Shown here: positions 3,001 to 30,500 of the stretch, one piece after another
Position numbering within the stretch: position 1 is the stretch's first letter
Layout: every line of letters starts with the position of its first letter
Origin: Geosiphon pyriformis uo1
Taxonomy: Eukaryota > Fungi > Glomeromycota
Length of the DNA stretch: 64,000 bases
NCBI GenBank assembly: GCA_016748015.1
Contig: JAAOMT010000494.1
Span: 798,190-862,189, forward strand
Direction of reading: 5' to 3'
Made by a program: the position numbers and the translations under genes
Notes under the pieces: model-generated
The model's input: the letters and a program-made list of their open reading frames with translations, nothing else
Database searches by the model: none
Told to the model about the DNA's origin: nothing

Positions 3001-5705
3001 ATTAACAAGCTTATCAAGTGCCACCTGCCAGCCACCAATTTATCAGAGAAGAGGTCCAAAGAATGCTCAATAACGGATTGATTCAACCATCAAGAAGTCT
3101 TTGGGTCTCACCAGTAGTTTTGGTTAAAAAGAAAAACGGAAAAATTAGATTCTGTGTTGATTATAAACAATTGAATAGTGTTACAATTGGAGATGCCTAC
3201 CCTCTTCCAAGAATTGATGACATGCTAGATGCTCTGGGAAAAGCCAAGTTCTTTTCAACTTTAGACCTGGAAAGTGGATACTGGCAAGTCGAAATGGACC
3301 CAAAAGATAGACCCAAAACAGCATTCACCACTCAAGAAAGAAATTATGAGTTTAATGTTATGCCTTTTAGACTTTGCAATACACCAGCAACATTTCAGCA
3401 ACTCATGAATGTTGTCTATGAAGAGCTCTTGTGGCAATCAGTAGTTGTTTATCTTGATGATACTGATGTATACTCACCAAGCTTTGAAGTCCATATCATT
3501 CACCTGCGAGAAGTTTTTCAATGATTATGGAAAGCAGGATTAAAGTTAAATATTGAGAAATATCACTTTGGAAAAACAAGTTTGATCTTTTTTGGATACA
3601 TAGTTAGTAAAGATGGAATCAAACCAAACCCAGGAACAATCAATGCTGTCAAAAACTTTCAAACCCCCAGAAATACTACAGAACTAAGAGGATTTGTGGG
3701 ATTAGCCTCTTACTATTGAAAATTCATAAAAAGATTTTCAGAAATTGCCAAACCACTCAATTATCTTACCAACAAAAATGTACCATACAAATAGACTGAA
3801 GAACAACAAAAAGCTTTTGAAATTCTCAAAACAAAATTGACAACAGCCCCAGTTTTTGCTTATCCAGACTTCAACAAACGATTCCAATTAGCCACTGATG
3901 TCTCACATATAGCATTTGGTGCCATCTTATCACAATTAGATGAAAATGGCCAAGAACAAGTTATTGCCTATGCCAGCAGAACACTCAAGCCAACAGAACT
4001 CAAATATGGCTCAACTGAATTAAAAGCTGCTGCAGTTATTTGGGCTCTTAAACATTTTCAACAATATCTGAAAAATGGAAAAGAATTTGACATAATAATG
4101 GACAACATTGGCCTCAAATGGCTCAATAAAAAGAAAACTGAACAAAGTGCCAAACAGTCTCGATGGAATGACTTCCTAACAGACTACAGATATATTGTAT
4201 ACCACAAACCAGAAAAACTACATACCAATGTTGATAGCCTCTCAAGAATGAGACAAGATTAATACCAACAACAATTCCACCACAACTTACCAACTTACCA
4301 ACAAAATAACCAAACAAGAATGGATCCCAGAAACTACAGCAATCTTAAAAATTATTTGGAGACCCTTATCATGCCAGAAAACTGGTCTCCAAGTAAAAAA
4401 CACTGCTTACAACACCAATTAAAACAATATTTCATACACCAGAACAAAATTTATTATAAAAATCACAAAAAACCAAACCAGCTACTCAGATTAGTACAAG
4501 AGAATGAAAAAGAAACAATTTTATACAACATGCACACAGATCCGTTTTCAGCACACTTGGAAAAAGAGAGAACAATTCAAAGAACCCTTGAACATTATTT
4601 TTGGCCTCACATGCAAAAAGACATTCAACAATATGTAGAATCTTGTGATAACTGCCAAAGAAGAGAAGAAACTTGTCCCACAGAACCTTTAAATCCAATC
4701 AAAGTTGGACAACTTTTTGACAGAGTTGGAATTAATTTAGTCGGACCATTACCTATCACAACCCAAGAAAATTGTTATATTGCAGTTGCAGTGGATTATC
4801 TTACCAAATGGCTTGAAGCTAGAGCCATCCAAAGAGCAGATGCAAAATCAGTAGCAAAATTCATCTATGAAGACATTATCTGTAGACATGGATGCCCAAT
4901 TGAACTCTTATTTGATCAAGGAACACATTTTGTGAACAACTTGATACAAGAAATTTGTGAACAGTTCAATGTCAAAAGATCTCTATCATCACCTTATCAC
5001 CCTCAAACAAATGGACTTGTAGAACATTTCAACAGAACATTGTGTGAATCTTTAGCCAAAGTCTCAACAGACTTTGAACATGAATGAGATATCTTTATTC
5101 TATCAGTGTTACTAGCATACAGAACACTAAAACAAGATACTACGAAACACACACCATTTGATCTTACTTATGGAAGGACAGCAACATTACCAATTAGTTT
5201 CACAGTGGAAACATACCCAGTGCAACCAATCAATGAAGAAAACTTTCAAGAGACACTCCAAAGAAGAGCCTACACTCTTCTTAGTACACTGGAAGAAAAA
5301 AGAAGAATAGCAGCAGCTCATATTGAACATTCCCAAGCTCAATAAAAAGAAAGACATGACAACAAATTACCATCTATTACCAACGAATTTAAAGTTGAAA
5401 ATAAAGTTCTCTTGCACAGAACTAAGGCTGAAAAACAATGAAGTGGGAAATTTGAAAACAAATGGGATGGACCATTTTATATTCACGAAATTCTAGGCAA
5501 TAGATCATATAAGTTAAGACTTGATGACAAAATATTAGCAAAAGTTGCACATGGAAACAGACTGAAACACTATCATTCCAGAAACAATCCTGAACCATTA
5601 ATTCCACAAATTGGTACACATTTCCCTTTAATTAATCCTGAAGATATTCCCCGAAATTTAGAACCAATAATTATAATAGAACAACAACCAAACTTGAACA
5701 CTTAA
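1..5705 (+). pseudogene. A1 gag-pol polyprotein, one reading frame broken by nonsense codons
   Basis: ORFs 87, 1065, 2175, 3018, 3837, 4320 and 5106 are all in the same frame (frame across the N gap not verifiable). Motifs: CHYCGIPGHWKRDC (444-485), LILDNG (DSG in A2), YLDD, ATDVS (RNase H), H..H..CDNC, GINLVGP/DQGTHF/QTNGLVE (DDE), KWDGPFY (GPY/F). Confidence 0.93.
2390..2670. other. Assembly gap (281 N) covering the dUTPase position of A1
   Basis: Flanks match A2 positions ~23053 and ~23710, so ~656 bp are expected here. Confidence 0.95.
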
Positions 5706-5849
5706 ATTTTAGAATAATTCTCTAATAAAAACACAAAGACAAAAATAGTAAATAATTACAAAACACCCAAACCCAAAAACAAATAAAAAACCCCATATCC
5801 AAAAAATAATTTTCTTTATTCTCTCTTTTCATAATTAGTCAATTTTATC

Positions 5850-6557
5850 ATGATTATTCTCGGAAATATTCAACAAATATCCCAAAAATTAATGTTAGCC
5901 TTGAAAACACTTCCTGACTTATCTATAATGATTAATGGAAGTCAAATTAAATACATTCAGAAAGAAACCACAGCCCCAGTAGCAAATCATTTACAGAACT
6001 ATCACCCCTATAGAAGAGAAACAAGAAGTCACTCTAAGAATAGATTACCAAAACTTTTGAAGCAGGCACTAGAAGAAAATCTGCTAATTGCTCCTATTGA
6101 CATTCCACCAGATGCTACAATGCAACAAAAACTACTACTACTTCTTAATGAACAGAGCAATGAACACACCCCTATCTATAGATACTTTCAAATTGGAAAA
6201 ACACTTTATAAACGAAAACTGGAACTTGAAGCAACAAATCTCACTCCTGAAGTTATACAAAAACAAATCTACAATGAATTCAAAACAGCAGCTGGACCAA
6301 CAAACACTCGCTACAAACTTAGAACAGCTTTTAGACTCTATGATTTGTTTAATACTTGTGAAAATGTTTTACAAAATCCAATACTGCAATCAATGAAAGT
6401 CCAACACATTGGCAAACTCACAGAACTGAAATTTCAACAATTTTCAGACCAAATTACTTCAATTATTTTAGATCACTATCTCAATATTACAGATAGTGCT
6501 TGGACTTCGATGGAGCTCAGTCTTAAGGAGGAAATTATGTTACCAGTAGAATTTTAG
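5850..6557 (+). CDS. A1 ORF3: 235-aa accessory protein of unknown function, intact, overlapping PPT and start of 3' LTR
   Basis: ATG-initiated open frame downstream of the pol stop. Homologous ORFs occupy the same position in all families. No obvious signal peptide or TM segment. Confidence 0.8.
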   Translation: MIILGNIQQISQKLMLALKTLPDLSIMINGSQIKYIQKETTAPVANHLQNYHPYRRETRSHSKNRLPKLLKQALEENLLIAPIDIPPDATMQQKLLLLLNEQSNEHTPIYRYFQIGKTLYKRKLELEATNLTPEVIQKQIYNEFKTAAGPTNTRYKLRTAFRLYDLFNTCENVLQNPILQSMKVQHIGKLTELKFQQFSDQITSIILDHYLNITDSAWTSMELSLKEEIMLPVEF

Positions 6558-7550
6558 CTATTAATTAGCATGAAATTACTCTTATAATTCCTATAATTCA
6601 TTAGTATATTAATATCATTTCAAATTATCATTTATTATTTAATCAATTATTACATATCACGATTCAATTAAAATAATCTAATTAGTATAACAGAAAGTAA
6701 GATGATCAAATTACACAATACCCTGAACTTTGTAACATTCAAAAATTTGCCAAAATTTACAGAAATTTGCCGAAATTTATAAGAAATTTGCCGAAATTTA
6801 CAGAAATTCGCCAAAATTATGAATAGTTCACCCAAATTAATCAATAGTTCAGCAAAATAACTTGTAGTTCATCAAAATGTATCTTTAGTTTGCTGGAATT
6901 TGGGCAAAGCAAAAAAGTGCAAGTTCATAAATTAGTACTACAACAAGTTGTATAAAAGAAGAGCTTTTCTCTTTTGGAAAATGTATCTTACTTTAGATTT
7001 ATCTCTTAAAAACTGTTCCTATACACACAAAAAGAAATAAATATTAAATAATTCAAAAAACCAAATTTTTTAATTATTGTACTTGGAAAAATCCTCAAAA
7101 TCCAACTAACATTTTGAAATTAATTAGTTACCAATTTCAGTAAACTGTTAATAACTCCAGGTCTGGATAGAAAATGTTTCTCTTGACAAAATTCTATTTC
7201 TTTTACATTTCTTTTATTTTTCTTTTTTTTTCTTATTACAATCATTAGGGTAGCCTACAGACAAGATTCCTGTAGAAGAGTTGACTTTCACAGCAAAGTA
7301 ACTATACATTTTAGTGAGCTTCCAGACGAGCAATTCCTGGGAAAGAATTGATGTTTACTACAATGTAACTACACAAAGCAACTGGCACGGAATTGGCCAT
7401 TTTACTTATAAGTCCAGCAGTTCAAATTATAGGAGATAATTTGAAGATAAATTCAGTTATTGGAGGTTTAACTACTTTTAGAAAACGTGAATTCACAACA
7501 AACAGACATTAATAACATTTAAAAAAAGAGACCAAAAACCTCCAGTAACA
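6538..7550 (+). repeat. A1 3' LTR (1013 bp)
   Basis: TGTTACCAG...CCAGTAACA termini, TATAAAA at 6951, ~20-bp GAAATTYGCCRAAATTTACA repeats at ~6742-6820, U-rich tract. Confidence 0.95.
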
Positions 7551-9724
7551 CCATCCACAAACGAATGGTTTAGTTGAAAGATTTAATAGAGTATGAAGCA
7601 ATTGCCAAAATCAGTCAAGAAAATTAAGAAGAATAGAATTTGTTTATACCATTAGTATTATTTGCTTATTGGACAATAAAGCAAGATACCACACAAACAA
7701 TACCATTTGAATTGGTATATGGTAGAACAGCAATATTACCAGTTGAGATAAAGGTCAATATATATTCAACTGAACCAATAACAGAAGATAATTTCTAAGA
7801 AACTTTGTTGAAAAGAACATATAACTTAATAGAAACACTAGAAAACAGATAACAAAAAGCAGCTAATAATATTCAAAAGTCACAAAAAAAACAAAAAGAA
7901 AGACATAATAATCAACTATTAAACAAACCAGTTGAATTCAAAATTGGAGACAAAGTACTTTTATATCATACCAAAGTGGAAAAACAATGGAGTGAAAAAT
8001 TTGGCCCCAAATGAAACAGACCATTTCACATAGAAGAAATTCTTGGAAATGGAGCTTATAAATTAAGATAGGACAACAAAATCTTAACCAAAACAGCACA
8101 TGATGATTAACTAAAACTATATTACCAAATAACATCATCATCCACCAATAACATTTCACAATTAGAAGTACAATGAATACTAGTCCAACCAGATGAGATT
8201 CCACGAGATCTGGAACCAATCATAATCATTGAACCAAACATGTAAAATCAAACAATAAAAGAGTATATAAAGACACAATATATGTGACAAAAGCAACCAA
8301 GAAAATAGAAATACCAGATTATATTCACACCATAGCTCAACAAATATTCCAGGTCTTAAGTCAACAACTTTTAGACTTGGAAATTATTGTTAACAACCAA
8401 ACAATTTGCTATCAAAACACCAAAAGTAAGACAAAGAATACACCATATTAGCAGTTACCAAAAAATGATAAAAATGGGTCAGATAACATAAAAAAAAAAG
8501 TAAAGAACACTTTTGAGAAAATACCTATTATGGCACCAACAGAGGAACTTACAAAAGAGAATTAGAAGCAATGGACAGAACAACTTCCAATATCATACTG
8601 TTACTACCAGTTAGGTCAGAAGTTGAATATTTAAAAATTGTATATCAACAAATCCAAGAGGATATTTAACCAAAACATAATACAGCAAATTGAAAAATTT
8701 ATTGGGAAAAAAATAAACTCAACACTGCATGTGAGAACAATTTACCAACTGCACAACATATTTCAGAACTATCCAGAAATACTGTTATACTCTAACATAG
8801 AAACTATAACCATTAACCAATGGGGAAAAATGAACAATACACAAGTAAAAGACATGAAAAACAGAGTCAAATAGACAATACTTGAAAAAGAAGTATTAGA
8901 ATTAATTCAAAACAAAGATTTCAATGGAGCTCAATATTAAAAGATGGAGATAATATTACTCATAAAAGAAAGAAAACAGATATAGAAAATAGCAGACCAA
9001 TAAGAAAATAGTATTTAGCACGTGAGCACATTGCTCAGCAATGTGGAGCAATATCAGAAATTATGGCACATTGCTCAAAAAATCATAGCATATTGCTTAG
9101 GAATGTAAGCAATCTCATAGAACATCAATTATATATATATAGCAGTAGCAGTAGAAATAGAGAAAAAAAAAAAAAACAGTTAGTTAGAAATCTTCCATTC
9201 ACAAATAATAAATAAATAAATCATTTATCATCCAAATTCACTCTCCACTATTAACACTTCATGTTGATAGTTATTGATACATAACCACACTGGACTAATA
9301 GCTCTTGATCATGGCTATTGATGGAATACTAACATGTTCATTGCCTTGGCTTATTTTTATGTTATTTCTTTTATTTTCTTGTCTTAATTGTTGTTATTAC
9401 TAATTTTATTGAGAATTAATATACAGAATACTGACATCAAGATATAGCACTGGTAAAAGACCCAGAAATAAGAGTAGAATATTCGATTGAGGTTAGCTTA
9501 TCAGGAGAAACACTGGTCATCACGCTGAAAAAGAAATTAATAAAACTGCAGTTTCAGGAAGCTACAGATAAAATTATTACCACTGAATCTCTATCCATTA
9601 TACAAAAAACTCAACCAAAACCTTCAGATAAACTCACCTTCAGATTTCTATTATTGACAACAGTCTTGAGCACCAAGTTATGAGTTTGTTATTTACTCCG
9701 ACAACCAAGTAATCATCTGTAACA
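7551..9724 (+). mobile_element. Gypsy element B, 3' portion (IN C-terminus 7551-8245, decayed ORF3 ~8305-8940, 3' LTR 8954-9724), inserted in the integrase of element C
   Basis: IN motifs ending ...DEIPRDLEPIIIIEPNM*, PPT aagatggagataa, LTR TATTACT(TG>TA)...CTGTAACA. Downstream sequence resumes DYLTK*IEARA. Confidence 0.88.
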
Positions 9725-11611
9725 CTGACTATCTTACAAAGTAGATAGAAGCAAGAGCCACTTCAGACCAAACAGCAGTCTCAATAGCCAATTTTATTTA
9801 TAAAAATATTATCTGCCATTATAACTGTCTCAAAGAACTTTTGTCTGATAGAGAAAGAGCTTTTCTTAGTACACTGGTTGAAAAACTTTGCAGAAAAATG
9901 AAAATACATCATAAACTTTCTTCCCTATATCACTCCTAAACAAATGGCCTAGTAGAATATTTCAATAGAATACTATGTGAAACCCTAGCCAAAACCAGTG
10001 AAAAAACAAACTTATAGGACAAAATACTGTCTTCAGCTTTGTTTGTTTATAGAACTGTAAATCATGACATAACAAGTTATGAACCTTTTTATCTGTTTTA
10101 TGAACACATGGCAACATTACCAATAGAAATTAACATTGAGACAATACTCTTTGAAAAAATTACAATAGGAAATTACAAAAACATTTTGCAAAGAAGACTT
10201 GGTACTATTCTTGACTCCTTGGTAAAAGCACAAATAATTGCTTTTAAAAAGATAAAACAGTTCCAAGAAAAGCTTAAGAAAAAAAAAACCTATAAAACAT
10301 TTTCTTTAAGTGTTGGTAACTTGGTATTAGAATATCATTCAGACAGAGACAATGTTTATAATAATAAATTTTCTAGCCAGTGAAAAGAATCTTTTATAGT
10401 CAACAAAGTTTTGAACAATGGTTTTTATATTCTTTAAGATCAATTCAGAACAATCTTTAATGATCATTCTGTTTATGATACATGACTCAAGAAATATTAT
10501 AAACGACCTGATTGGCTGCCTGTTGTGGTAATACCGACTCAAATAATCAGCAAAAATCAAGTATAAATAAATGCATCATTCTCAAAACAGAGGTATTTTT
10601 AATCGACATGAACAATTATTTTCTGGATTAAAATATTCAAAATGCCTTCTATACTCTCCATAAGTATTGGATCAAAAACTATCCAAATGCTACTCTGACC
10701 ATTGGAAAACAAACCACCATAATTGATAACAGTAGAACATATACTGTTATTAGACCAAAGAAAACTACTCTCAGAAGAGAAAGAATTGGTAGTAAAATGA
10801 ATAAATATTTATTGGAAAGTATAACAGCAGCTATACTTCTACCTTCCAACACAATTGGAAAAACACTTTAAGAAATCTTACTTATAAACAAAAACTTGTT
10901 ATATGGAAGGCAATTAAAACTCTATGGTCACCTTGGTAAAATCATAGAAGATATAAAACTCATAAAAAAAACAACTTCAGAGATACAGACAGAAATTTTG
11001 GGCATTATACAGTTAGATGTTTCAAGAGTTTTAACTATTGCTAAAAGAGCCAAAACTCTAATACAAAGATTTGGTCTCTTGAATACAAAACTCATTTCAC
11101 TTCAAATATTATATACCCTATCTACAAAAAACTTCAACAAACTAATTAGCTTTGAGTTAGATAAAACTCTTCAAATAGATTACACCATAAATAGCTTGAT
11201 TTTGCTGGAGCTCAATCTCTTTGAAAAGGATAATGTTATGGTTGAAACTTATACTTTTTATTAATTATCACATGTATTAGCCATTAATGTCACATAAATT
11301 AGCCACTTTATTTTTAGAAAGTAATCATTGACCTAATTATTGACCTAGTTGTTGACTTAATCATTGACCACTTTTGACAGCTATATAAGCAATAAATCTC
11401 TTAGCTGTAGAAAAGTATGTAGAAATTAAGGAAATCAAATAAATAAAATAACAACTTTAATCTTTTTCTTATAAACATCTTAGGATAAAAGATTACTTAT
11501 TGGTTATTTTCTACCCTTTTCTTGAAACATATAATTGCAGCATTTGAAGATTATTAAATAAAACATGACTGAAGAGTACATCTGATATCTAATATTAAAT
11601 TCTAAGAGCAC
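9725..11611 (+). mobile_element. Gypsy element C, 3' portion (IN to ~10566, ORF3 10608-11264, first part of 3' LTR 11234-11611)
   Basis: Colinear with the reverse complement of element G (42619-44790). PPT gaaaaggataa followed by TGTTATGG. The LTR is split by element D. Confidence 0.9.
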
Positions 11612-13724
11612 TGTTATGGGTAAACTTGGCAGGATATGGTGGTAATGTTTGGTGCTTTATTTTTGAGTTATCTTTCAAGGTTGTCTGCTTTTTTCACCAT
11701 GTCAGTGTTATCAGTCTCTGAAAGTCTATTTCTGGATATGAATTTACCCATTGAGTTCTTTGATTATAAGACACAGAGTTTGTCTTTTGTTAATTACAAC
11801 ATTTTCCACAATTGTAAGTTTTTTTTTTCTGCACTAATGAGCACAGTCATTAGGATCTGGCTTTGTTTTTTTGTTTTTTTGGTAAGCTACCAAGATAATA
11901 TTAATATCCAAAACTTAGGAGGAGCTTTCCTCTTTTACCAGGCTATCACAAAGTTTATTCCAAAACAGTCAATTTTTTTATGTTGCTGCTCCAAACAAAA
12001 AAAAAAAAAAATTAAAGAAAGAAAAAAAAAAAAAAAAAGAAAGAAAAAGAATTAGTTCCTGTCAATTGCCATAATCAAGAGTGATTGGTCCAAATTGTTA
12101 ATATTTAAGGCATTTATGCTAATGGCATCTGTCCCAAAATGAAGGTAGAAAATACTGATTTCGATTTTTAATTGAAATCTATAATATTGGTAAACATGAA
12201 GTGGTAATTTGGATTTCTTTTTGGTTTTTGATATTTTATTGTATTTCAAACTATGAATATATGATAAATATAATACAAAGTAAAATTAATTGCTAATTAA
12301 CTGTCTTTTCAACTTCTACAACTACTTGCTTTTATACATTCTTTTGGTTTTACAAAATTGCTTTCAATTGTTTCACTATTGCTAATTATTGTTTATGTTT
12401 GCTAGCTATTGCTCGTGTTTGTTCTGTGTTATCTTAAGTTGTACTATGTTTTTCTTGTTACATTTCTTTGTCATGTTTTTCTATAGCTTTTTGGTTTTTC
12501 TATTTAGGTAACATTATCTCTCCCTTTTTAAAATTAAGCTTCTGCAAAATCATCTATTTCAGCCAAGTTTGTGTTTTCCATAAAGAACTCGAATGTTGTC
12601 TTTAGTATTGCTTTTTGTAAAACTTCAAATTGGGTGTTTGTCATCTGTCCTATGTTGTTGAATGTGATAGTTTTCAGAGTTTTGTCTAGTAGTACTATTG
12701 AACAGTATTTAAATGCTGAATGTAATCAATATGTTGTTTTGTAATATAGGTTTAAGTTGTTTCTTCCCACGAATTCTTTTACTTGTCTGTGGGCTTCTTT
12801 GTTGATCATTTGATGATTAAAGTCTTTGTATGGGCTATTTAATCTTAATTGCAACCCAATTTTAAATAGCCAATAGACAAGTGAAAGTTTTTTTTTCCAT
12901 TTTTTCATGTTTTTAGGTGTCCATTCTTCTGTTATTGGCTCTGGTGTTTGTCTGTTCAGTCCCTCTCTTATTTCCTCAATTCTCACCTGACACAGTTCTA
13001 TTTCTGTTACCTTTCTCTTCTTCTTAGTTGTGTCAGGTTCTATTCACACCATATCTTTTTTTTTTATAAGGAGAGGTTTGCTTGTAAGAGTGTAACAGCT
13101 TAGTTTTAGTTGAACTCTCATCCACCCCTTTCTTGCTCCTATCCCTGTATTGTATCTCTTTTTTATCAATTGTGATTTTTATTTGAGTGGAAGATTGTTG
13201 AATTGTGTCAAACAGTTGTTTCAAAAGTTGTAGAATTTGATCTGAAAGGTCTATGTTGAAAAAAGTTCTATCATTTTCTCGTTGTTTTCTGGGTGGTATA
13301 TATACTTAAATTTTCCAATTTAATTTGCTATGTGTTGTTTACATTTCAATGATGATGATTGGTTTCAGATTTCATGGTATATCTTCTAGTCTAATTAATG
13401 GAATTTGTGTTTCTAGTTGATGTACTGATAATGATGACTGTTGTTTTATATGATAAATTTTTAATTGATTCTCATGAGCTACTTTTTTTAAAATTCTGTT
13501 TTCCAATTGTAATTTGTAAGCTCCATTTCCTAAAGCTTCGTGTATGTAGAATGGGCCATCCTATTTTGGGTCAAACTTTTCATTTCATTGTTTCTCTACT
13601 TTTGTATAATGTAACAGTACTTGGTTTCCAGTCTTAAATTTCATTGGTTGTTTAGTTAGGCAAATGTCATGTCTTTTTTTTTGTTATTCTTGAGCATTAC
13701 TGATATTGTTAGCTGCTATTCTAT

Positions 13725-17400: not shown

Positions 17401-17933
17401 TCTTAGCATAACTGCCTTAAACTATTAACAATTTTCTGATCAATTGTTCTTGATTATGATGATTGACAATACTAATTTATCTTTCTTTTTATTTTCTTTC
17501 TTTCTTTGCTTTTATTTTCTTTCTCTTTTTTTATTTTTTTTCTTGAGAAGTGGCAACATAGTAAAATCAACTGTCTAGAAATAGACTTTGTGATAGCCTG
17601 GTAAAAAAGGGAAGCTTCCCCTAGGTTTTGGATATTAACATTATCTTGATAGCTTACCAGAAGGGTAAAAAAACAACACTAGACCCTAATGACTGTGCTC
17701 GTTAGCTCAAAGGAGAAAGCTCATCTTTATAAGAAGTTGCAATCAGTGAGAACCAAAACTTTGTGTTTTATAACCAAAGAACTTAATGGATAAATTCACA
17801 ACCAGTAAAATAAGACCTTCAGAGACTGATAATCAAGAATAAGCCAATAGAATTATGCCAAAGATGTATTACCAACTATTGAGAGCACCAAACATTACCA
17901 TTCTCATATCCCACCAAGTTTATCTGTAACATT

Positions 17934-17949: not shown

Positions 17950-19690
17950 ATTATAAATCCACAAAAACAGAGCACTCCAGAGATACACAAAAGTGGTGAC
18001 TATTAGAACAATAGAAAAGAACCATTCCTTGTATGAAAGAGCACTATTTCAATACTTTTAAAAAAATCTAGGAATACTAGCAGAAACCACCATCACAAAA
18101 AGTGATTTTTGCAACTATATCAACACAAAAATCAACTGCTTGTTAGGCCACATAACTGATACAGGAAGACTTGAAAAACAAATCCATCAAAGCTTACTAG
18201 GGTACTCAACAACTACTATTACTCAAGCAATTGCTGAAACTCTATGCATAGTTGATACAAACATTAAACACTACATAACAAAACAATTCTCTCAAATACA
18301 ACAACCAGTAGAATCTGATCCGGAGGAATACAAGTACAGATCCAATAATCTCACAACTGCCCAAGACAAGTCCATGATTAACAAAAAACCAAGGTTCCTC
18401 TCTCTAACAATTCCATCATATCATCAGACACTTCAAAGTAGTATTGTATTCAATCCACCTCTGGAAACCCTAGAAATTCACACCTTTGGGGTCAACAAAG
18501 TTGGACCAAATCATTAGAAGAATATGGATTGCTGTTTAAAAATCTTATCCCAACAGCTGGTTAAACAGAAAGAAACATGTCAACTTGGGAACAACCATCA
18601 GCACAAAACCCAATAGAATCAGCATTTCCCCTAATAGAAGAAACAGCTATCTTACAACCTATTGGTTTAAGCAATGTTACCAGTAGAATTTTAGTTATTA
18701 ATTAGCATGAAATTACTCTTATAATTCCTATAATTAATTAGTATATTAATATTATTTCAAATTATCATTTATTATTTAATCAATTATTACATATCATGAT
18801 TCAATCAAAATAATCTAATTAGTATAACAGAAAGTAGGATGATCAAATTACACAATACTCTGAACTTTGTAATATTCAAAAATTCGCCGAAATTTACAGA
18901 AATTCGCCGAAATTATGAATAGTTCACCCAAATTAATCAATAGTTCAGCAAAATAACTTGTAGTTCATCAAAATGTATTTTTAATTTGCCGAAATTTAAG
19001 CAAAGAGAAAAAGTGCAAATTCATAGACTAGTACTACAACAAGTTGTATAAAAGAAGAGCTTTTCTCTTCAAGAAAATATATCTTACTTTAGATTTATTA
19101 CTTAGAACCATTCCTACATACACAAAAAAAAATAAATATCAAATAATTTGAAAAACCAAATTCTTTAATTATTGCACTTGGAAAATTCCCAAAACCCAAC
19201 TAATGTTTTGAAATTGATTAGCTACCAATTTCAGTAAACTGTTAGTGACTCCAGGCCTGGATAAAAAATGCTTTTCTTGATAAAATCCTATTTTTTTTAC
19301 ATTTCTTTTATTTTTCTTTTCTTTTCTTATTACAATCATTAGGGTAGCCTACAGATGAAATTCCTATAGAAGAGTTGACTTTCACAGCAAAGTAACTACA
19401 CATTTTTAGTGAGCTTCCAGACGAGCAATTCCTGGGAAAAAGTTAATGTTTACTACAACATAACTACACAAAGTAACTGGCATGGAATTGGCCATTCCAC
19501 TTATAAGCCCAGCAATTCAAATTATAGGAGATAATTTGAAGATAAATTCAGTTACTGGAGGTTCAACTACTTCCTGAAAACATGAATTCACAGCAAATCA
19601 ACATTACCAACATTTAAGAAAAAAGACCAAAAACCTCTGGTAACATTTGGTGCTCTCTCATAGAAATAACACAGCAACAACAAATTCAAA

Positions 19691-22600
19691 GTGATGACCA
19701 CACCAAACACAGCAACTTTAGAGTATTACCAGTCAATTTACACCCACTGCAAGCAAAAATTCAACACTCCAGACGGAATTGAAGTTGTCAAGAAATCAGT
19801 ATACCAATACATTGAAAACCGCATCAACAATTATCTTTTTGGAAACTACAACATTTCAGAAGTTAGAAGCAACCTCTACAATAATTTAGTGCACTATTCA
19901 CAATTGGAAACAGAAGACCTGAACAGTAAAACACTTGCTACCTACTTCCAAGAACTTAATTTTAACATTATTGAGTATTGTGAAGAAAAATACCCAGTAC
20001 AATGTAAATACTCTTTTGACTTTGAATCAGAAACAGAAACAAGCAACAAAAACAAACAAAGATTGAAGCAATACTCAAGAACCACTCCAAACACTCCAAT
20101 ACTACAAAAGACACCTGCCAAACACTTGCAAACACCTGAACAAGGAACTAGTATCAAATTACCACTTTCTATTACACCATTTCCAATTTCACTTGTTCAA
20201 CCACAAACACCAAATTTACCACTCAACTGTTTCTCCAGACCAGAAGATTTTCAGTCACCTAGAAATCCTACTCAACAGCAGGAACCAATATCAACAAGTG
20301 CCAATATCATTGATTATTTACTAGAAAACGAAAGTAATCATTCAGAAAGCTTGGAAAGTAAAGAAACTGAATCAGAACCAGAAGAAATTCCAGAAAACGA
20401 AAAAAAAATGGCAACTGCTTACATTGCAAAAATTCCAGAATTTACTGGTGAAGACAATGATACCAGTCCTCAAGAATGGCTTGACAAAGTTCAAAAAGCA
20501 GGAGATGCAAATGGTTGGATTGCAGCAAGAATGCTTAAAGCAATTCCCTACTTTCTCCAAAGAACAGCAGAAGAATAATTTGAAAATTTAGAAGAACCAT
20601 TTGAAAACTGGCAAGCATTCAAAGATGCTTTTCTACAACAATTTACTGACAACAATACCTCTATCACTCTCAGAAACTGCTTTCACAATATCAAACAAGA
20701 AACATTTGAAACTGTTATGACCTATCTTGGAAGATTTAACAAACTTCTTAGATGAATCCGACAATTGGAAACCAATGACTACTATTCTGATGCTCAAATT
20801 CTAGATCAGTTTATAGTAGGGTTAAAAGACAAACTGATTAAGAAAGTCCGTCCACATGCTCCAGCAGACTTAGCAACTGCTATTAGACATGCAAAAAGCT
20901 ATGAAATGGCAATAGAAGAAGCAAATCACACCAAGCTTGTAAACCTTGCAATTGGAGAAACCAGCTCAGCAGCTGAAGAGAAGATAGACCAACTTACAAA
21001 AAAAGTTGAAAGCTACTTCACAAACCAACAACAACCACAAAGATATCAACCCCCACAATGACACAACCAAAACAATTTTGGATCACCATCCAACAGCCAA
21101 TCTTAAAATTGTCATTATTGTGGAATTCCAGGACACTGGAAATGAGATTGTAAAAAATTACAAAGAGACCAACAAAACAGGAGTAATCAACGTTACTCTT
21201 CATCACAACAATCCTATTACCAATCTCCACCACCAACCTATTATTCACCAAGACCACATAATCAAAACAGTTATTATTCACCAGCTCCCACAACCAATGC
21301 AGCAACAATATTAGCAATCTTTACCAATTCAGCCATATCAAACACCACCCACTCAACAATATCAAGTACCAGCAAGAAGATTGGTTCAACATAACCAATT
21401 TACACCCCAAAATCAATTGCAGAGTAACCACAACAGAATCAATTCAAATAACCAGTTGGTTCCCTGAAATTCTGATCAGCAAAGACCTAATCACTATTAC
21501 ACTCAACCCAGTTATCTTACAATACCAGAGGAATCGGATTTTCAACAAACTGTACTTTCTGAAGGTGAAGTTGCAGCACCAAGATCAAACTCTTCCAACC
21601 ACACCATTCCACCAGCTCAAATTGCCCAAAATGCCAATCTGTCAGATATATTTCTATTTGAATTTGAAGCAAATGAATCACCATTTCTGCTTAGTAATGC
21701 AGCAGTCAATGAACAGAAAGCAATTACTGCTATGTACACAGAAGCTATAGTGGAAGGAAAACCCATTTGCTTAATCTTAGATAGTGGATCAGCTGGAAGT
21801 ATCATCACTTACCAGCTGATGCAACAACTTAAACGAAACATAGACAGACCAGCTCAAACAGTTATTGTCACAGCTGATGGTATGAAGAAGACTCCAGTAG
21901 GAGAAATTGATGACTTCCCCTTTACAATTGATGGAATCACCATTCCAGTTAAAGTTCTTGTTATGGATGCACCCCAATATCAAGCTCTAGTCGGAAATGA
22001 TTGGCTTCTCAAGACCAATGCAAACCTAAACTGGAAAACTCAAGAACTTAAAATCTCATACCAAGGACAATATACCATAGTACCTGCAACCTGTGGTACC
22101 TTTAACAAACAATCAGAAAAAGCTCCAGTATTTGAATTTGAAGAAGAGAAGAAAATGCCACTCATTGAAACCTACATGGCTCTTAGATTACCATTCAATT
22201 GGGCTGAGAAAACAGAACAAGAGATTTTTAAAGAATCAAGAGGATGGAAAAAAGTTAGATATTCCACACCAGAACCACAAAAAGAACTACCATACATTCC
22301 ACTAAAATGCAAAGATTGCAAAAAGAAGCTTTCATCTATGAGAGTCTGTATCTCCTCAGAAAAGGAATACAAAACTCGCACTTATTTCTGCAAAGCATGC
22401 CATAGAGAACGATTTGAATCCCCAAAAAGAAGTGAAAAATGGGACAAAACTCCTTGCCTCACATGTAGAGAAATGCTACCAAAAGAATGCAATTGGATTG
22501 ATGTAGCAATAAGAGGAGGAGTATGTGATCAAACCTGTTAATATGCTTTATCAATTTCGGAAAAAGTCAGAAGAAGAACACCATTTGATGCAGCATACAA

Positions 22601-25600
22601 CAGTGCTCTCAATAAACTTTACCACTACTCTTATAATGCTGAAATGATTTTTGATCTAGCAATAGCATTGATTAATGGAGCCACACAAAAAAATGTCCAC
22701 CAAATGAAAGAAACTGAATATATTGAGTATACCATAGAATTAGCTGGATTTGATTATGAAGATGAAGTAGAAACCTACCACCAAATTGCAAGCCACACAT
22801 ATTCGACCAAAGAAGCTCAAATTCAATAATTAGAGCAAATGAACATTCAATTGTGTAAAGAATGTGTTATGCCTTGTGATGACCAATGGTGTTTAGAATG
22901 TTATGCTCTTAGCATTCCTCTGTCAGATGAGAATGATGAAAATGAAATCAAATTTGGAGTATTTGAACTAATAGAAGAACTACCAACTGCTCCCATCTAT
23001 CTTCTTGAAAAGCAACTACCTCTACAACTTAAATATTTTGACAACCATGGCCAAGAAATCAGACTGGAAAAAGCACACGAAATTAATGCTGGATATGATC
23101 TAAGATACCCAGGAAAAGATACTTTGGTTCTCCAACCAAAGTCCTTAACAAAAATCAATCTCAAAATTGCTCTTGAAATTCCACCAGGAGCAATGGTTCA
23201 AATTGCCTCCAGATTATCATTGGCAAGCAAAAAAATCAATATTAGAGAAGGAGTTATAGATGCAGAATACACTGGAGACATTACTATTATGTTACAGAAC
23301 GAGACAGACAAACCATTCAAAATTGAACATGCTGAAAAAATTGCTCAAGCAATTTACTTATCCTTAATCAACATTTCGGGATTACAATCAGTAAACAACA
23401 GAGAACCATTGGAAAAAAGTGAAAGAGGAACTCAAGATTTTGGTTCAACTGGACGATTTACAATTTCAGTAAATATAGCTCTTAATACACAAAATGAATC
23501 TCACCAGATTCTTCAACTTTCCCAGCCAATTACAATTTCACCTTTTGGAGAATATCACGAAATTTATACTTGTTCAAAACTCACCACTACACAACAAATC
23601 TTTGAATCCAATGAACAAATCTGTTTGAAGCATGAAATCTCAATTCCAAACATTTATATTCCCAAAAGAATGAGAAAATTTTGAGTTACATTCTACAACC
23701 CCAATAATTACTCTATTGTTTTATTAAACAAACTAGAAATTGGAATCATACACAGCAATATTTTTCAAGATGAAAACCCTCAAATTGTCTCTAATTTCAT
23801 TGAAATTGTAAGGCACACTCTATTCCCAAATCCAAATATCATTTCCACTACTGAAAACTACTACTTTTTGGAAAAAAAACTCTCTCAAATCAACATGGGT
23901 TCCTTAAAATCTCAACAACAAAGACAATTGAAACAATTGATAGCTGAATTTGCAGATATATTTGCAAAAGACAACAATAACTTGGGAAAAACAAACATTG
24001 TTCAATATCAGATCCATACAGGAAATGCTCTACCAAAACGTCAACAAGCCTATTGAGTGCCACCTGCTAGCCACTAATTCATCAGAGAAGAGGTCCAAAA
24101 AATGCTCAATAATGGATTGATTTAACCATCAAGAAGTCTTTGGGCCTTACCAGTAGTTTTAGTTAAAAAGAAAAATGAAAAAATCAGATTCTGTGTCGAT
24201 TATAAACAACTGAATAGTGTTATAATTAGAGATGCCTACCCTCTTCCAAGAATTAATAACATGCTAGATGCTCTTGGAAAAGCCAAGTTCTTCTCAACTT
24301 TAGACTTGGAAAGTGGATACTGGCAAGTCGAAATGGACCCAAAAGACCAACCCAAAACAGTATTTACCACCCAAGAAGGAAACTATGAGTTCAATATTAT
24401 GCCTTTTGAACTCTGCAATGTACCAGCAACATTCCAACAACTCATGAATGTTGTATATGAAGGACTCTTATGGCAATCAATAGTTGTTTACCTTGATGAC
24501 ACTAATGTGTACTCACCAAGCTTTGAAGCCCATCTTATTCATCTGCAAGAAGTTTTTCAACAATTACAGAAAGCAAGATTGAAGTTGAATATTGAGAAAT
24601 GTCACTTTGGAAAAACAAGCTTAATCTTTCTTGGACACATTGTTAGCAAAGATGGAGTCAAACCAAACCCTGGAACAATTAGTGCTGTCAAAAACTTCCA
24701 AACCCCAAAAAATACCACAGAGCTATGAGGATTTGTAAAATTAGCCTTCTATTATTGAAAATTCATCAAAGAATTCTTAGAAATTGCCAAACCACTCAAT
24801 TATCTCACCAATAAAAATGTGCCATACAAATGGACTGAAAAACAACAAAAAGCATTTGAAACCCTCAAAACAAAGCTGACAACAGTCCCAGTTCTTGCTT
24901 ACCCAGACTTCAACAAACAATTTCAATTAGCCACTGATGCTTCACACATAGCATTTGGTGCTATCTTATCACAAGTAGATGAAAATAGGCAAGAACAAGT
25001 CATTGCTTATGCTAGTAGAACACTCAAACCAACAGAACTAAAATATGGCTCAACTGAATTAGAAACTGCTACAGTTATTTGGGCTCTTAAACATTTTCAA
25101 CAATATCTAAAGAATGGAAAAGAATTTGACATAATAACGGACAACATTGGTCTCAAATGGCTCAATAAAAAGAAAACTGAACAAAGTGCCAAACAGTCTT
25201 GATAGAATGACTTCCTAGCAGACTACAGATATATTGTACACCACAAACCAGGAAAACTACATACCAATGTTGATAGTCTCTCAAGAATGAGACAAGATTA
25301 ATACCAACAATAATTCCACTACAACTTACCAACTTACCAACAAAATAACCAAACAAGAATAGATCCCAGAAATTACAGCAATCTTAAAAATTATTTGAAG
25401 ACTCTTACCATACCAGAAAACTGGTTTCCAAGTGAAAAACATTGTTTACAATACCAATCAAAACAATATTTTATACACCAGAACAAAATCTATTATAAAA
25501 ATCACAGAAACCCAAACCAACTACTCAGATTAGTACAAGAGAATAAAAAAGAAACAATTTTATACAACATATACACAGATTCATCTTTAGCACACTTGGG

Positions 25601-26744
25601 AAGAGATGAAACAATTCAAAAAACCCTTGAACATTATTTTTGGCCTCACATGCAAAAAGACATTTGACAATATATAGAATCTTGTAATAGTTGTCAAAGA
25701 AGAAGAGGAACTCACCCCACAGAATTTTTAAATCCAATCAAAGTTGGACAACCTTTTGACAGAGTTGGAATTAATTTAGTCAGACCATTACCTATCACAA
25801 CCCAAGAAAATTGTTATATTGCAGTTGCAGTGGATTATCTTACCAAATGGCTTGAAGCTAGAGCCATCCAAAGAGCAGATGCAAAATCAGTAGCAAAATT
25901 CATCTATGAAGACATTATCTGTAGACATGGATGCCCAATTGAACTCTTATCTGATCAAAGAACACATTTTGTGAACAACTTGATACAAGAAATTTGTGAA
26001 CAATTCAATGTCAAAAGACTTTTATCATCACCTTATCACCCTCAAACAAATGGACTTGTAGAATGTTTCAACAGAACATTGTGTGAATTTCTAGCCAAAG
26101 TCTCAACAGACTTTGAGCAGGAATGGGATATCTTTATTCCATCAGTGTTACTAGCATACAGAACACTAAAACAAGATACTATGAAACACACACCATTTGA
26201 TCTTACATATGAAAGAACAGCAACATTACCAATTAATTTCACAGTGGAAACATACCCAGTGCAACCAATCAATGAAAAAAACTTTCAAGAAACACTCCAA
26301 AGAAGAGCTTACACTCTTCTTAGTATACTGGAAGGAAAAAGAAGAATAGCAGCAACTCATATTAAACATTTCCAAGCTCAACAAAAAGAAAGACATGACA
26401 ACAAATTACCACCTATTACCAACGAATTTAAAGTTGGAAATAAAGTTCTCTTACACAGAACTAAGGCTGAAAAACAATGGAGTGGGAAATTTGAAAACAA
26501 ATGGGATGGACCATTTTATATTCACAAAATTCTAGACAATGAATCATACAAGTTAAGACTTGATAACAAAATACTAGCAAAAGTTGCACATAGAGACAGA
26601 TTGAAACATTATTATTCCAGAAACAATCCTGAACCATTAATTCCACAAATTGGTACACATTCCTTTTTAATTAATCCTGAAGATATTTTCCGAAATTTAG
26701 AACCAATAATTATAATAGAACAACAACCAAACTTGAACACTTAA
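19691..26744 (+). pseudogene. A2 gag-pol (gag-CCHC-PR-Cys-rich-dUTPase-RT-RH-IN), many stop codons
   Basis: IPEFTGED..EWL capsid, LILDSGS protease, YLDD, DAS, DDE core, KWDGPFY, ends LEPIIIIEQQPNLNT*. Confidence 0.93.
23030..23453 (+). pseudogene. dUTPase domain in A2 pol
   Basis: All five trimeric dUTPase motifs in order, with transition damage: AGYDL, ASRLSLA, GVIDAEYTG, IAQAI, RGTQDFGSTG. Confidence 0.92.
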
Positions 26745-26889
26745 ATTTTACAATAATTCTCCAATAAAAACACAAAGACAAAAATAGTAAATAAATTACA
26801 AAAACACCCAAACCCAAAAACAAATAAAAACCCCATATTCCAAAAATAATTTTTCTTATTCTCTTTTTTCATAATTAGTCAATTTTATC

Positions 26890-27598
26890 ATGATTATTCC
26901 CCGAAATATTCAACAAATATCCCAAAAGTTAATGTTAGCCTTAAAAACACTTCCTGACTTATTCATAATGATTAATGGAAGTTAAATTAATTACATTCAG
27001 AAAGAAACCACAGCCCCAATAGCAAATCATTCACAGAATTATCACTCCTATAGAAAAAAAACAAGAAGTCACTCTGAAAATAGATTACTAAGACTTTTGA
27101 AGCAAACACTAGAAGAAAATCTTTTAATTGCCCCTATTAACATTCCATCAAATGCTACAATGCGACAAAAAACTTCTACTACTTCTCAATGAACAGAACA
27201 ATAAACACACCCCTATCTATAAATACTTTCACATTGAAAAGACACTTTATAAACGAAAACTAGAACTTGAAGCAACAAATCTCACTTCTGAAGCTATACA
27301 AAAACAAATTCACAATAAATTCAAAACAGCAGCTGGACTAACAAACACTCACTACAAACTTAGAGCAGCTTTTAGATTCTATGATTTGTTTAATACTTGT
27401 AAAAATGTTCTACAAAATCCAATACTACAACCAATGAAAGTCCAATACATTGGCAAACTCACAGAACTGGAATTTCAACAATTTTCAGACCAGATTACTT
27501 CAATTATTTTGGATCACTATCTCAATATTACAGATAGTGCTTGGACTTCGACAGAGCTCAGTCTTGAGAAGAAGATTATATTACCAGTAGAATTTTAA
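26890..27598 (+). pseudogene. A2 ORF3 (stop codon plus frameshift)
   Basis: Near-identical to 5850-6557. Confidence 0.85.
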
Positions 27599-30500
27599 CT
27601 ATTAATTAGCATAAAATTACTCTTATAATTCCTATAATTAATTAGTATATTAATATCATTTCAAATTATCATTTATTATTTAATTAATTATTACATATCA
27701 CGATTCAATCAAAATAATCTAATTAGTATAACAGAAAGTAGGATAATCAAATTACACAATACTTTGAACTTTGTAATATTCAAAAATTTGCCGAAATTTA
27801 CAGAAATTCGCCGAAATTATGAATAGTTCACCCAAATTAATTAATAGTTCAGTGAAATAACTTGTAGTTTATCAAAATGTATCTTTAATTCGCCAAAATT
27901 TGAGCAAAAAAAAAAGTGCAAGTTCATAGACTAGTACTACAACAAGTTGTATAAAAAAAGAGCTTTTCTTTTCAAGAAAATATATTTTACTTTAGATTTA
28001 TTACTTAGAACCATTCCTATACACACAAAAAGAAATAAATATCAAATAATTTGAAAAACCAAATTCTTTAATTATTGCACTTGGAAAATTCCCAAAACCC
28101 AACTAACATTTTGAAATTGATTAGCTACCAATTTCAGTAAACTGTTAGTGACTCCAGGCCTGGATAGAAAACGCTTCCCTTGATAAAATCCTATTTCTTT
28201 TACATTTCTTTTATTTTTTTTTTATTTTCTTATTACAATCATTAGGGTAGCCTACAGACAAGATTCCTGTAGAAGAGTTGACTTTCACAGCAAAGTAACT
28301 ACACATTTTTAATGAGCTTTCAGATGAGCAATTCTTGGGAAAGAGTTGACATTTACTACAATATAACTACACAAAGTAACTGGCATGGAATTGGCTATTC
28401 CACTTATAAGCCCAGCAGTTCAAATTATAGGAGATAATTTGAAAATAAATTCAGTTACTAGAGATTCAACTACTTCCTGAAAACGTAAATTCACAGCAAA
28501 TCAACATTACCAACATTTAAGAAAAGAGACCAAAAACCTCTGATAACAGCGACAAAGAAAAACAACCAGCATTAGCACTCAGAAAACACTCGAATATGCA
28601 GACACCAATCTTCTTAAATGTAATCAGTAACACCCCACTCATTAACTGGATCATGGCTTACCAGGATATCACTAAATTGGAAAAATTCTTTGGTAAAGAA
28701 AATAACGCATATTCTTGGATTGCAGATGCCAAGAAAGCAATTATTGCTAATGGTTGGGATGATGACCACACAATTCAGACACTGCAGTTTTTTTTGACTA
28801 GAACTACTGATTCATGGTACCAGAGTCTTGCAAAGAAACCTACTTCTTTTACAGAGTTTAAACTCATATTTCTGCAATACTTTTGTGATCCTAATACACT
28901 TATTCGATTGCAAAATCAATTCAGTATAATAAAACAAAATGACCATGAAGTAGTAACTACTTATTTCAGAAGATTTAATCAAGTTCTTTGACAAATTCTA
29001 GCCATTGAGCAGAATTATTATACCACCACGCAAGTCCTCAATCAATTTGTTAAAGGACTAAAGAACAGCTTCCTAAGATCCATATGATCTTGCCATCCAA
29101 CAAATCTACAAGAAGCAGTCGCTTTTGCTCGCAATTTTGAATCCACAGAACAAGAAGTGAACTATACTCAAGCCGTAAATTTAGCCATCAATAGAACTTC
29201 TAACATCAATGCAAAAATAACTTAATTAAGTGAGAAATTAACTCAGAAAATTGAGGGATTCTTAGCCAGAACCACAGAAACTTACCAACTACTACAACGA
29301 AGAGAAAATAACAACAACAGCAGATACCTACAGCAACAAAACTGTCAGCAACAGCAACAACCTTGGAGATCCAATCCCTATAACTGTTACTACTACCAGA
29401 AACCTAAACACATTGCCTGTAATTGCAAAAAGAAAATAATAGACCAAACTCAAAGAAACCAATACCAGCAACCAAGATATTAGCAAAACATGGTATTCCA
29501 ATATTCCATACTTCAAAATCAACTGTCCCAGTATGCACAACAAATCCCATATAGTCAACTATCACTCCAAAATTATTATCAACTATTACCAATAACACAA
29601 GCAATTTCTCATTATTAAACTCCTCCTTATAGTCTGCCCAGATCTCGAGCCATAGACTATAATCAGAGATAGAGAAATTTCAACAACAATCAGGTACAAA
29701 CCAACAACAGACTGTCTCAACCAATCTCTCGTGGTTCTGCCCAATTTTGATCAGCACCAACCAAATACCTGAATTAAGCTTCCTATTTTGGTCTCATAAA
29801 AGACCAGGGTTTTGATAAATCTACATCTGTGGAAAGAAGGAATGTAGAACAAATCTCTCAATCTTCCAAGCCAACAAAAAGTAATATCTCACCAGCCACT
29901 ATTACTGAGGATACCACTCTAGCTGCCATATTTCCTTTTGACATTGATAATTTGAACATTTATAGTCTTTTTAGTAAAGCAGCTATCAATCAAGATAAAC
30001 CAATAACAGCTCTATACACTGATGCCAAAGTCAGAGAAATAGATATTAAATTAATTCTGGATAGTAGATCAGCCAGTAGCATAATTACAAAGCAGCTCAT
30101 GGACCAACTAGATTACTGAGTAGACCATGCTGCTACTGCCCGGATTATTACAGCAGATGGAAACACAAAAACCCCAATAAGAAAAATTGACAACTTTCTC
30201 TTCGAGATTAATGAAATCCAGATCCCTACTAAAGTACTTGTCATGGAAGCTACTTAATATCAAGCTCTGGTAGGAAATAATTGGTTGTCAAAAGCCAATA
30301 CTACTTTTGATTGGAACACCCAAGAACTTCAACTCATGTTCAATGAACAGCATGCTCGAATCCCAGCTATGTGTGGATACTTTAAAACCCAACATACTGA
30401 GGAACCTCTTATTGAATTTGAAGACATATCACTACCACTGATTATCAAAATCTATTAGGTTTCATGGGCAAACAATTATCAAACTGAACTATCTTCACCA

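What the first reader, a model, noticed from the sequence alone, without database searches (positions are those of the whole stretch)
5850..6557. A conserved non-env accessory gene (ORF3) at the env position in all four Gypsy families
Seen: every element with a visible 3' end (A1 5850, B ~8305, C 10608, D 13254-, A2 26890, E 35100, G 43915-) has a ~210-250 codon sense ORF running from just after the pol stop up to or through the PPT, usually into U3. The families have very different LTRs, yet the ORFs share one architecture. It comprises an N-terminal helix plus beta pair (LPDLSIMINGSQIKY / LLDLEIIVNNQTICY / STQIKITIDKKEIQY), a basic linker, then Y-x(3-4)-[ILV]G-x2-[LI] (YRYFQIGKTL / YCYYQLGQKL / YWFYKVGEQL / LYGHLGKII), AFRLYDLF / AAY.LYTAF, and a [IV]xxIGx[LM]TxxQF helix. 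No signal peptide, furin site or TM anchor is evident, so it does not look like an envelope. Established: typical fungal Ty3/Gypsy elements encode only gag and pol; accessory 3' genes characterise complex retroviruses (foamy virus tas/bet), and TE-encoded anti-silencing factors exist (VANC of plant VANDAL). Inference: a retained helical nucleic-acid- or chromatin-binding accessory protein, such as a transactivator or silencing suppressor, defining a 'complex' fungal retrotransposon lineage.
Basis: partly seen in the sequence, partly recalled or inferred. Interest (0 to 1): 0.88.

Follow-up and report, generated by a model that had tools for sequence, protein, structure and literature searches.

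The report
Extra gene in fungal Gypsy retrotransposons
Gypsy-type jumping genes of this fungus carry, after their integrase, a conserved extra gene for a soluble helical protein of no known family, which likely regulates the element's own promoter; the same elements also encode integrase as a separate gene.

Summary
The gene is real; its function is not shown. All 7 elements carry an ORF3-like frame between the integrase stop and the 3' LTR, but only A1 (5850-6557) is open. Best protein hits are Geosiphon pyriformis hypothetical proteins. Homology is firm across families A, B and D/E (profile z about 25). A metagenome element with a 33%-identical ORF3 keeps the same position. For C/G, homology is only suggestive (three tests negative, global alignment z about 3.5). 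Between-family comparisons show codon-level constraint. There is no transmembrane segment, so it is not env. No Pfam, PDB or fold match passes threshold. The predicted helical C-domain has a weak helix-turn-helix-like core. Each family has its own tandem array in U3, and between D and E the ORF3 C-domain travels with the LTR. Best guess (0.4): a family-specific LTR-binding activator or anti-silencer, possibly from an internal promoter. Extra ORFs at this position are a known kind. This protein family and the three-gene layout were not found in my literature searches.

The parts
5850..6557 (+). ORF3 of element A1, intact, 235 aa: N-terminal helix plus beta pair (about aa 7-35), variable basic linker, helical C-domain (about aa 80-212)
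4320..5705 (+). Integrase of A1 as a separate ORF with its own ATG (3 internal decay stops); zinc-binding and core domains; no chromodomain was listed by Pfam for the integrase segments scanned
4260..4319 (+). Stop right after RNase H, then a G-poor, C/A-rich 57-nt spacer before the integrase ATG
5706..5849 (+). Integrase-ORF3 spacer of A1: 3% G, no ATG, ends in a pyrimidine run
6512..6537 (+). Conserved GAGCTC-type motif followed by the polypurine tract, inside ORF3; the motif is present (exact or one change) in all 7 window elements and L001
6538..7550 (+). 3' LTR of A1
6743..6878 (+). Family-A tandem arrays (20-bp units) in the 5' part of the LTR (presumed U3); candidate ORF3 binding sites (inferred)
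26890..27598 (+). ORF3 of A2, one frameshift and one stop
8305..8953 (+). ORF3 of element B, 5 stops; TATA-like box at -41
10608..11264 (+). ORF3 of element C, 218 codons, 2 stops; divergent type, homology to A/B/D/E only suggestive; TATA-like box at -46
12514..13254 (-). ORF3 of element D, frameshift and stops; TATA-like box at -50
35100..35861 (+). ORF3 of element E, 7 internal stops; TATA-like box at -46
43281..43915 (-). ORF3 of element G (C type), frameshift and one stop
18675..28548 (+). Full-length element A2: LTR, PBS, gag, protease, dUTPase, RT, RNase H, separate integrase, ORF3, PPT, LTR

Best explanation
ORF3 is a conserved, selected accessory gene of a dUTPase-bearing Ty3/Gypsy lineage; its soluble helical protein likely binds the element's own LTR and would switch on or protect transcription of its own family. 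Shown: position, homology across A/B/D/E and a metagenome element, codon-level constraint, no membrane segment, a separate integrase ORF, family-specific tandem arrays in the LTRs, and joint travel of the C-domain and LTR between D and E. Inferred: ORF3 is made from a short transcript started at an internal TATA-like promoter just after the integrase stop. Its three-helix core (about aa 105-167, conserved Gly/Asn turn, basic third helix) reads the tandem arrays in U3. It then activates the LTR or keeps CG methylation off it, in the manner of foamy-virus Tas (recalled) or plant VANC.
For: Gene reality: in nucleotide-only alignments, mean BLOSUM score exceeded all 2000 position-permuted nulls for E/D, E/B and A1/L001. 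D/E pN/pS 0.38 against a simulated neutral mean of 0.58, 3 of 1000 as low. Between two A subfamilies the C-domain is 84% identical and the linker 48% (p = 2.5e-5). The ORF3 tree does not conflict with the integrase tree. Mechanism, all circumstantial: AlphaFold2 gives a fairly confident helical domain (block pLDDT 72-92 for aa 81-170, 64-66 for 171-200). It aligns weakly to part of sigma-F (entry 1l0o chain C, Z 4.7, rmsd 2.4, 57 of 57 residues; its HTH nature is recalled) and to the CHD1 C-terminal domain (Z 5.1, rmsd 3.5, 79 aligned). A, C/G, D and E each have a different tandem unit in the LTR. D and E are 79-90% identical from gag to the first ~50 ORF3 codons, then 57-69% in the rest of ORF3 and mostly about 70% (59-82%) in the LTR; pS is 0.66 in the C-domain against 0.20 in integrase. 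TATA-like boxes sit at -41 to -50 in B, C, G, D and E. The window is CpG-depleted (o/e 0.25), and TE CG methylation is reported in a related fungus (bioRxiv 2021.03.30.436303, passages).
Against: No fold match stands out: best Z 5.2-5.6, under the level the tool calls meaningful for helical bundles. Foldseek found nothing at E <= 0.001 in PDB or viral models. The recalled likeness to the DUF1016/YhcG N-terminal domain appeared in 1 of 12 sequences at E 0.037 and was not supported by purpose-built profiles. Three of 7 proteins tested are neutral or acidic overall (pI 5.4-6.9). The C-domain and LTR are neighbours, so one crossover explains their joint travel without co-evolution, and it is a single event. 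The TATA-like box is absent from A1 and A2 and lies at -126 in L001; shuffled spacers contain one 17-27% of the time, so 3 of 5 lineages is weak. Against a transition-rich neutral simulation, E/B pN/pS was not significant (213 of 1000), and within-family pairs A1/A2 and C/G look neutral.
Confidence: 0.4

Rival explanations
1. ORF3 is an RNA-level regulator: it binds the element's RNA and would export it (Rev/CERV-like) or allow translation of the downstream integrase and ORF3 cistrons (caulimovirus TAV-like; recalled).
For: Pol stops right after RNase H in 6 of 6 checkable elements (A1, A2, D, E, G, L001). Integrase follows in the same frame (A1, A2, L001) or the +1 frame (D, E, G), with an ATG in A1, D, G and L001 and ATA at that place in A2 and E, so simple readthrough cannot be the general route. 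The RNase H-integrase spacers have 0-3% G and no ATG in 3 of 3 measured. A GAGCTC-type motif is kept before the PPT in 8 of 8 elements. Atlas feature hits include a phage translation repressor at 0.90. Precedent: CERV of Cer1 (PMC10309623, abstract).
Against: The Atlas hit is at chance level (4-10 in 100 shuffled proteins reach 0.9). No RNA-binding fold was matched. The GAGCTC motif is shared by all families, so it would not explain family-level divergence of the C-domain. Earlier scan notes describe separate-integrase elements elsewhere with a stop-start junction that may need no helper (unchecked).
Confidence: 0.22
2. ORF3 is an integrase partner or particle component that tethers the integration complex to chromatin or picks target sites, standing in for a chromodomain.
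For: No chromodomain was listed for the integrase segments scanned. ORF3 is inherited with integrase. Apparent 4-bp target duplications are GC-rich in 3 of 4 elements read.
Against: Between D and E the ORF3 C-domain travels with the LTR, not with integrase. ORF3 diverges much faster than integrase (32% against 59% identity for A1/L001).
Confidence: 0.15
3. ORF3 is a degenerate env or a movement protein for spread between nuclei or cells.
For: It sits at the env position. A1/A2 have a pyrimidine run and AG just upstream, like a splice acceptor.
Against: No transmembrane or signal-type hydrophobic stretch in 7 of 7 proteins, and 0-3 cysteines. No viral fold match at E <= 0.001. The acceptor-like sequence is not seen in B, C, D, E, G or L001.
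Confidence: 0.05
4. The frames are chance ORFs or passengers amplified with the elements, with no function.
For: Six of 7 window copies are broken, and within-family differences look neutral. High copy number alone explains the many database hits.
Against: Same position, frame and domain layout at 22-33% identity in four lineages including L001. Codon-level constraint between families. The integrase control also looks neutral within close pairs, as expected for decay after insertion.
Confidence: 0.03

Closest known systems
Sense additional ORFs between pol and the 3' LTR (aORF-3S) of plant Ty3/Gypsy elements such as Athila and Bagy2 (PMC7264820, first third of the text read)
   Same: Same position and strand; present in most copies of a family; function unresolved.
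   Different: Those are described as env-like, some with transmembrane domains and spliced mRNAs. This one has no hydrophobic segment and no conserved acceptor, is fungal, and follows a separate integrase ORF.
Antisense additional ORFs: Retand TRP28 (PMC11963269, abstract and Background) and Botrytis Boty brtn (PMC7264820; bioRxiv 2021.04.13.439636, one passage)
   Same: Lineage-wide extra gene after pol; TRP28 is proposed to bind DNA and regulate the element; Boty shows that fungal Gypsy elements can carry one.
   Different: Antisense there, sense here. No Pfam match above threshold links them. I did not compare sequences directly.
Bdelloid rotifer ORF3s in dUTPase-bearing LTR elements (PMC5408684, abstract)
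   Same: dUTPase-bearing lineages with non-env third ORFs.
   Different: Those are recognisable enzymes (GDSL esterase, DEDDy exonuclease) or fusion proteins; this protein matches no family.
VANC anti-silencing proteins of Arabidopsis VANDAL transposons (PMC5735166, abstract)
   Same: Model for how it may work: an element-encoded protein whose targets are tandem repeats that differ between related families.
   Different: DNA transposons of a plant; no homology shown; binding and demethylation are demonstrated there and untested here.
Foamy-virus Tas/Bet with internal promoter (recalled, no call) and CERV of C. elegans Cer1 (PMC10309623, abstract)
   Same: Non-structural regulators encoded by LTR retroelements; Tas lies at the 3' end next to U3.
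   Different: No homology shown. Foamy viruses have env and a Pol that includes integrase (recalled). CERV comes from a spliced mRNA and acts in RNA export.

Membership tests
Ty3/Gypsy LTR retrotransposon | Domain order PR-RT-RH-IN between LTRs, with PBS and PPT | tested here: met
   Pfam order in A1/A2; TG...CA LTRs, PBS and PPT
Ty3/Gypsy LTR retrotransposon | Integrase encoded within the pol polyprotein | tested here: not met
   Stop after RNase H in 6 of 6 checkable elements, with integrase in frame 0 or +1; translation route untested
Additional ORF, sense, pol to 3' LTR (aORF-3S) | Conserved sense ORF between integrase and the 3' LTR in most copies | tested here: met
   7 of 7 window elements and L001; 74 of 143 stored A-type proteins are near full length and 20 of 120 C-type are exactly 218 aa, though their genomic context could not be read
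env / env-like protein | Signal peptide and transmembrane anchor | tested here: not met
   Maximum KD19 0.79-1.44 in 7 of 7 proteins; hydropathy only, no SignalP or DeepTMHMM available
env / env-like protein | Fusogen fold | tested here: inconclusive
   Model is a small helical domain; no listed match
Chromovirus | Chromodomain at the integrase C-terminus | tested here: inconclusive
   Pfam listed an SH3_Tf2-1-like hit and no chromodomain for the A2 integrase C-terminal ORF; other copies not scanned
Helix-turn-helix DNA-binding domain | Three-helix core with a tight turn before a recognition helix | tested here: inconclusive
   Helices 108-127, 133-148 and 153-167 with conserved G149/N152; best related match Z 4.7, rmsd 2.4, 57 aligned, not above background
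DUF1016/YhcG N-terminal domain (PF17761) | Significant profile match | tested here: not met
   1 of 12 sequences at E 0.037, 14.6 bits against a cut-off of 32.8; profiles from 26-30 YhcG relatives gave probability 0.1-0.2 and no member above shuffles; the YhcG set was one narrow clade
Transactivator or anti-silencing factor (Tas- or VANC-like) | Binds cognate element DNA and raises its expression or lowers its methylation | not testable with these tools
   Needs EMSA, DAP-seq or reporter assays

The most novel reading that the evidence does not exclude
The retrotransposons that swelled the Geosiphon genome are three-gene 'complex' elements: gag-pol ending at RNase H, a stand-alone integrase gene, and a regulator made from an internal promoter. 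The regulator recognises each family's own LTR repeat array and keeps it active in a methylated genome. All the families, C/G included, descend from one ancestor with this system, which would be a retrotransposon counterpart of VANC and foamy-virus Tas.
Probability: 0.25. Interest if true: 0.85.

Novelty: new variant of a known kind. Interest (0 to 1): 0.56.

Why it matters
How LTR retrotransposons expand in genomes that methylate them is an open question. LTR elements cover 41.2% of the G. pyriformis genome (PMC11952901, passage). A small soluble protein with intact natural copies in several families, each beside its own LTR repeat array, makes a family-specific regulator directly testable by swapping ORF3 and LTR. 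The separate integrase gene departs from the usual Ty3/Gypsy polyprotein and raises a second testable question about how it is translated. In practice, hundreds of annotated Geosiphon 'hypothetical proteins' (195 and 127 clusters) are likely transposon genes rather than host genes.

Tried and rejected
No whole genome is held, so genome-wide consensus and dN/dS could not be run. RNA runs: none was listed; this is no evidence on expression. Homodimer prediction: no verdict (score 0.00, alignment not used). Pfam and PHROGs: nothing above curated or convincing thresholds for 12 proteins. PDB sequence search: best E 0.35. Fold searches: nothing clear; the C-family model was too poor to search (mean pLDDT 42.8), although its first eight predicted elements follow the same order as in the A model. 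The DUF1016/YhcG idea (recalled motif likeness) was tested and not supported. A conserved splice acceptor before ORF3 was rejected because it is seen only in A. Simple stop readthrough into integrase was rejected as a general route because frames differ. Raw pN/pS values were discounted after finding that the transition-rich neutral spectrum alone gives about 0.55-0.65. Viral contigs held no relatives of ORF3, of the L001 integrase or of the PPT junction pattern. Plasmids: no match. Rfam: 0 matches in 4200-7600. Three non-fungal phmmer hits (firefly, dogwood, clam; repetitive proteins) were dropped as spurious. The profile search was swamped by Geosiphon copies (269 hits, best 120 listed), so its distant tail was not seen. 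The C-versus-A homology question was asked five ways; only the last was positive, so its z-score should be discounted for that.

Full report
Setting. The window is a nest of LTR retrotransposons, 31% GC and CpG-depleted (o/e 0.25). All 120 listed relatives of the A1 ORF3 protein, of 195 found, are Geosiphon pyriformis hypothetical proteins at up to 93% identity, so the window most likely comes from that fungus. No whole genome was available. The elements have TG...CA LTRs, a shared PBS and PPT, and the order gag, protease, dUTPase, RT, RNase H, integrase. dUTPase at this position is known from fungal and rotifer elements (PMC6431247, passage).

Observation. A1 5850-6557 is an open 235-codon frame starting 144 nt after the integrase stop and ending 20 nt inside the 3' LTR. 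Matching frames lie at the stated places in all 7 elements, but the other six carry stops, frameshifts or both. A1 is related to B, D and E at 22-24% identity (E about 1e-7), and A and B/D/E profiles align with z = 25. The C/G type is a separate 218-aa family (127 clusters, 120 listed, all Geosiphon). Its link to the others failed tblastn, hhalign, an HMM test and a semi-global alignment. C/G also has the most distant integrase. I rate common descent likely (about 0.7) but unproven.

Outside this genome. A search of 1.84 billion representatives gave 38 hits. Two are unnamed metagenome proteins at 33% and 28% identity (P0147, P0148), both ending in a peptide like the one A1 reads across its PPT and LTR edge. 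The contig for P0147 (L001; 1 locus from 597 pattern matches, scan incomplete) shows RT, RNase H, integrase, then the homolog in sense, the PPT and an LTR-like start. Its pol is 56% identical to A1. The Atlas's best feature hits for the C-domain are two unnamed Mucoromycota clusters (0.94 and 0.93), a lead that I could not open.

Selection. Raw pN/pS values were 0.39-0.79, but a neutral simulation with the mutation spectrum of LTR pairs gives about 0.55-0.65 by itself. After that correction D/E stays significant (0.38; 3 of 1000) and E/B does not (213 of 1000). A permutation test on nucleotide-only alignments that keeps each pair's own spectrum found conservative replacement in all three between-family pairs (0 of 2000 nulls as high by BLOSUM; by identity 0, 13 and 136 of 2000). 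It found none in the close pairs A1/A2 and C/G or in the D/E integrase control, as expected for decay after insertion. Between two A subfamilies the C-domain is 84% identical and the linker 48%. The gene was therefore under protein-level constraint in active lineages.

The protein. No hydrophobic segment in 7 of 7 proteins. AlphaFold2 (9 sequences, mean pLDDT 60) gives an uncertain N-terminal helix and beta pair, a disordered linker and a helical domain with block pLDDT 72-92 for aa 81-170. Conserved columns include Y110, G116, L119, G149, N152, F167, L174, G188, T191 and F195. They look structural, and no invariant acidic or histidine residue suggests a catalytic site. No Pfam, PHROG, PDB-sequence or fold match passed threshold. 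The most suggestive weak match covers helices 103-166 (part of sigma-F, Z 4.7, rmsd 2.4, 57 of 57 residues) and is not above background. A recalled likeness to the DUF1016/YhcG N-terminal domain was tested and not supported.

In 6 of 6 elements where the junction is present (A1, A2, D, E, G, L001), the pol frame stops 2-5 codons after the last RNase H motif. Integrase follows in the same frame (A1, A2, L001) or the +1 frame (D, E, G), with an ATG in four and ATA at that place in two. The spacers are C/A-rich with 0-3% G (3 of 3 measured). The layout is thus gag-PR-dUTPase-RT-RH, then integrase, then ORF3. How the two downstream genes are expressed is unknown. TATA-like boxes lie 41-50 nt before the ORF3 start in B, C, G, D and E, but not in A, and at -126 in L001; shuffles contain one about a fifth of the time. 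A splice-acceptor-like sequence occurs only in A.

Clues to function. Each of A, C/G, D and E has a different tandem array near the 5' end of its LTR. D and E are 79-90% identical through gag, pol, integrase and the first ~50 codons of ORF3, then 57-69% in the rest of ORF3 and about 70% in the LTR; synonymous divergence rises from 0.20 to 0.66. The C-domain and LTR were therefore exchanged together, once. This fits a protein that reads its own LTR, but simple linkage explains it equally. With the CpG depletion, the VANC precedent (PMC5735166, abstract) and TE methylation in Rhizophagus (bioRxiv 2021.03.30.436303, passages), I put a cognate LTR-binding activator or anti-silencer first (0.40). 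An RNA export or translation factor follows (0.22), then an integrase partner (0.15), env-like spread (0.05) and no function (0.03); the rest is left for roles not considered.

Comparison and novelty. Extra ORFs between pol and the 3' LTR are a described class in plants and insects, with an antisense fungal case (PMC7264820, first third read; PMC11963269, abstract and Background), and rotifer elements carry non-env ORF3s (PMC5408684, abstract). Nine literature searches and passages of PMC11952901, PMC8778642 and PMC13524379 showed no description of this protein family or of a separate integrase gene in these fungi. The library lacks most subscription papers, no Geosiphon genome paper was listed, and I read no supplements or repeat-database entries, where such annotation could lie. 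Earlier notes of this scan report helical accessory ORFs and separate integrase genes in Gypsy elements of other genomes; no look-alike was found by sequence, so I cannot say whether they are the same family. Verdict: a real gene, a new variant of a known kind, mechanism untested; interest 0.56.

Noticed in passing
window 4260-4322, 25299, 15473-15460 (-), 33639, 45269 (-); L001 772-801: Pol stops right after RNase H and integrase is a separate ORF in 6 of 6 checkable elements, in frame 0 or +1, behind a G-poor, C/A-rich spacer.
   Followed up: partly
window 6512-6521, 8926, 11207, 12542 (-), 35823, 43338 (-); L001 about 3091: A GAGCTC-type motif precedes the PPT in all elements, including the divergent C/G family; likely a cis element for reverse transcription or RNA handling.
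   Followed up: no
window 11612-42208: Nesting: A2 (18675-28548) lies inside E (16893-36890), which lies inside D; A1 lies inside the integrase of B. Apparent target duplications are 4 bp, and three of four look like decayed CpG-containing sites.
   Followed up: partly
window 12514-13724 (-) versus 34634-35851: D and E are apparent recombinants with a breakpoint inside ORF3, just after its N-terminal module.
   Followed up: partly
window about 1500-2390 and 22100-23050: A long Cys-containing stretch between protease and dUTPase has no Pfam match in the segments scanned.
   Followed up: no
window 2390-2670: 281-base run of N (gap or masked stretch) over part of the dUTPase region of A1.
   Followed up: no
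window 60177-62920 (+) and 57756-58229 (-): Host genes: UPF1-like RNA helicase exons and a weak ubiquitin hydrolase match.
   Followed up: no
proteins P0117, P0123, P0149, P0150, P0234: Several annotated Geosiphon gene models join ORF3 to integrase, dUTPase or unrelated sequence; likely gene-prediction artefacts across decayed elements.
   Followed up: no
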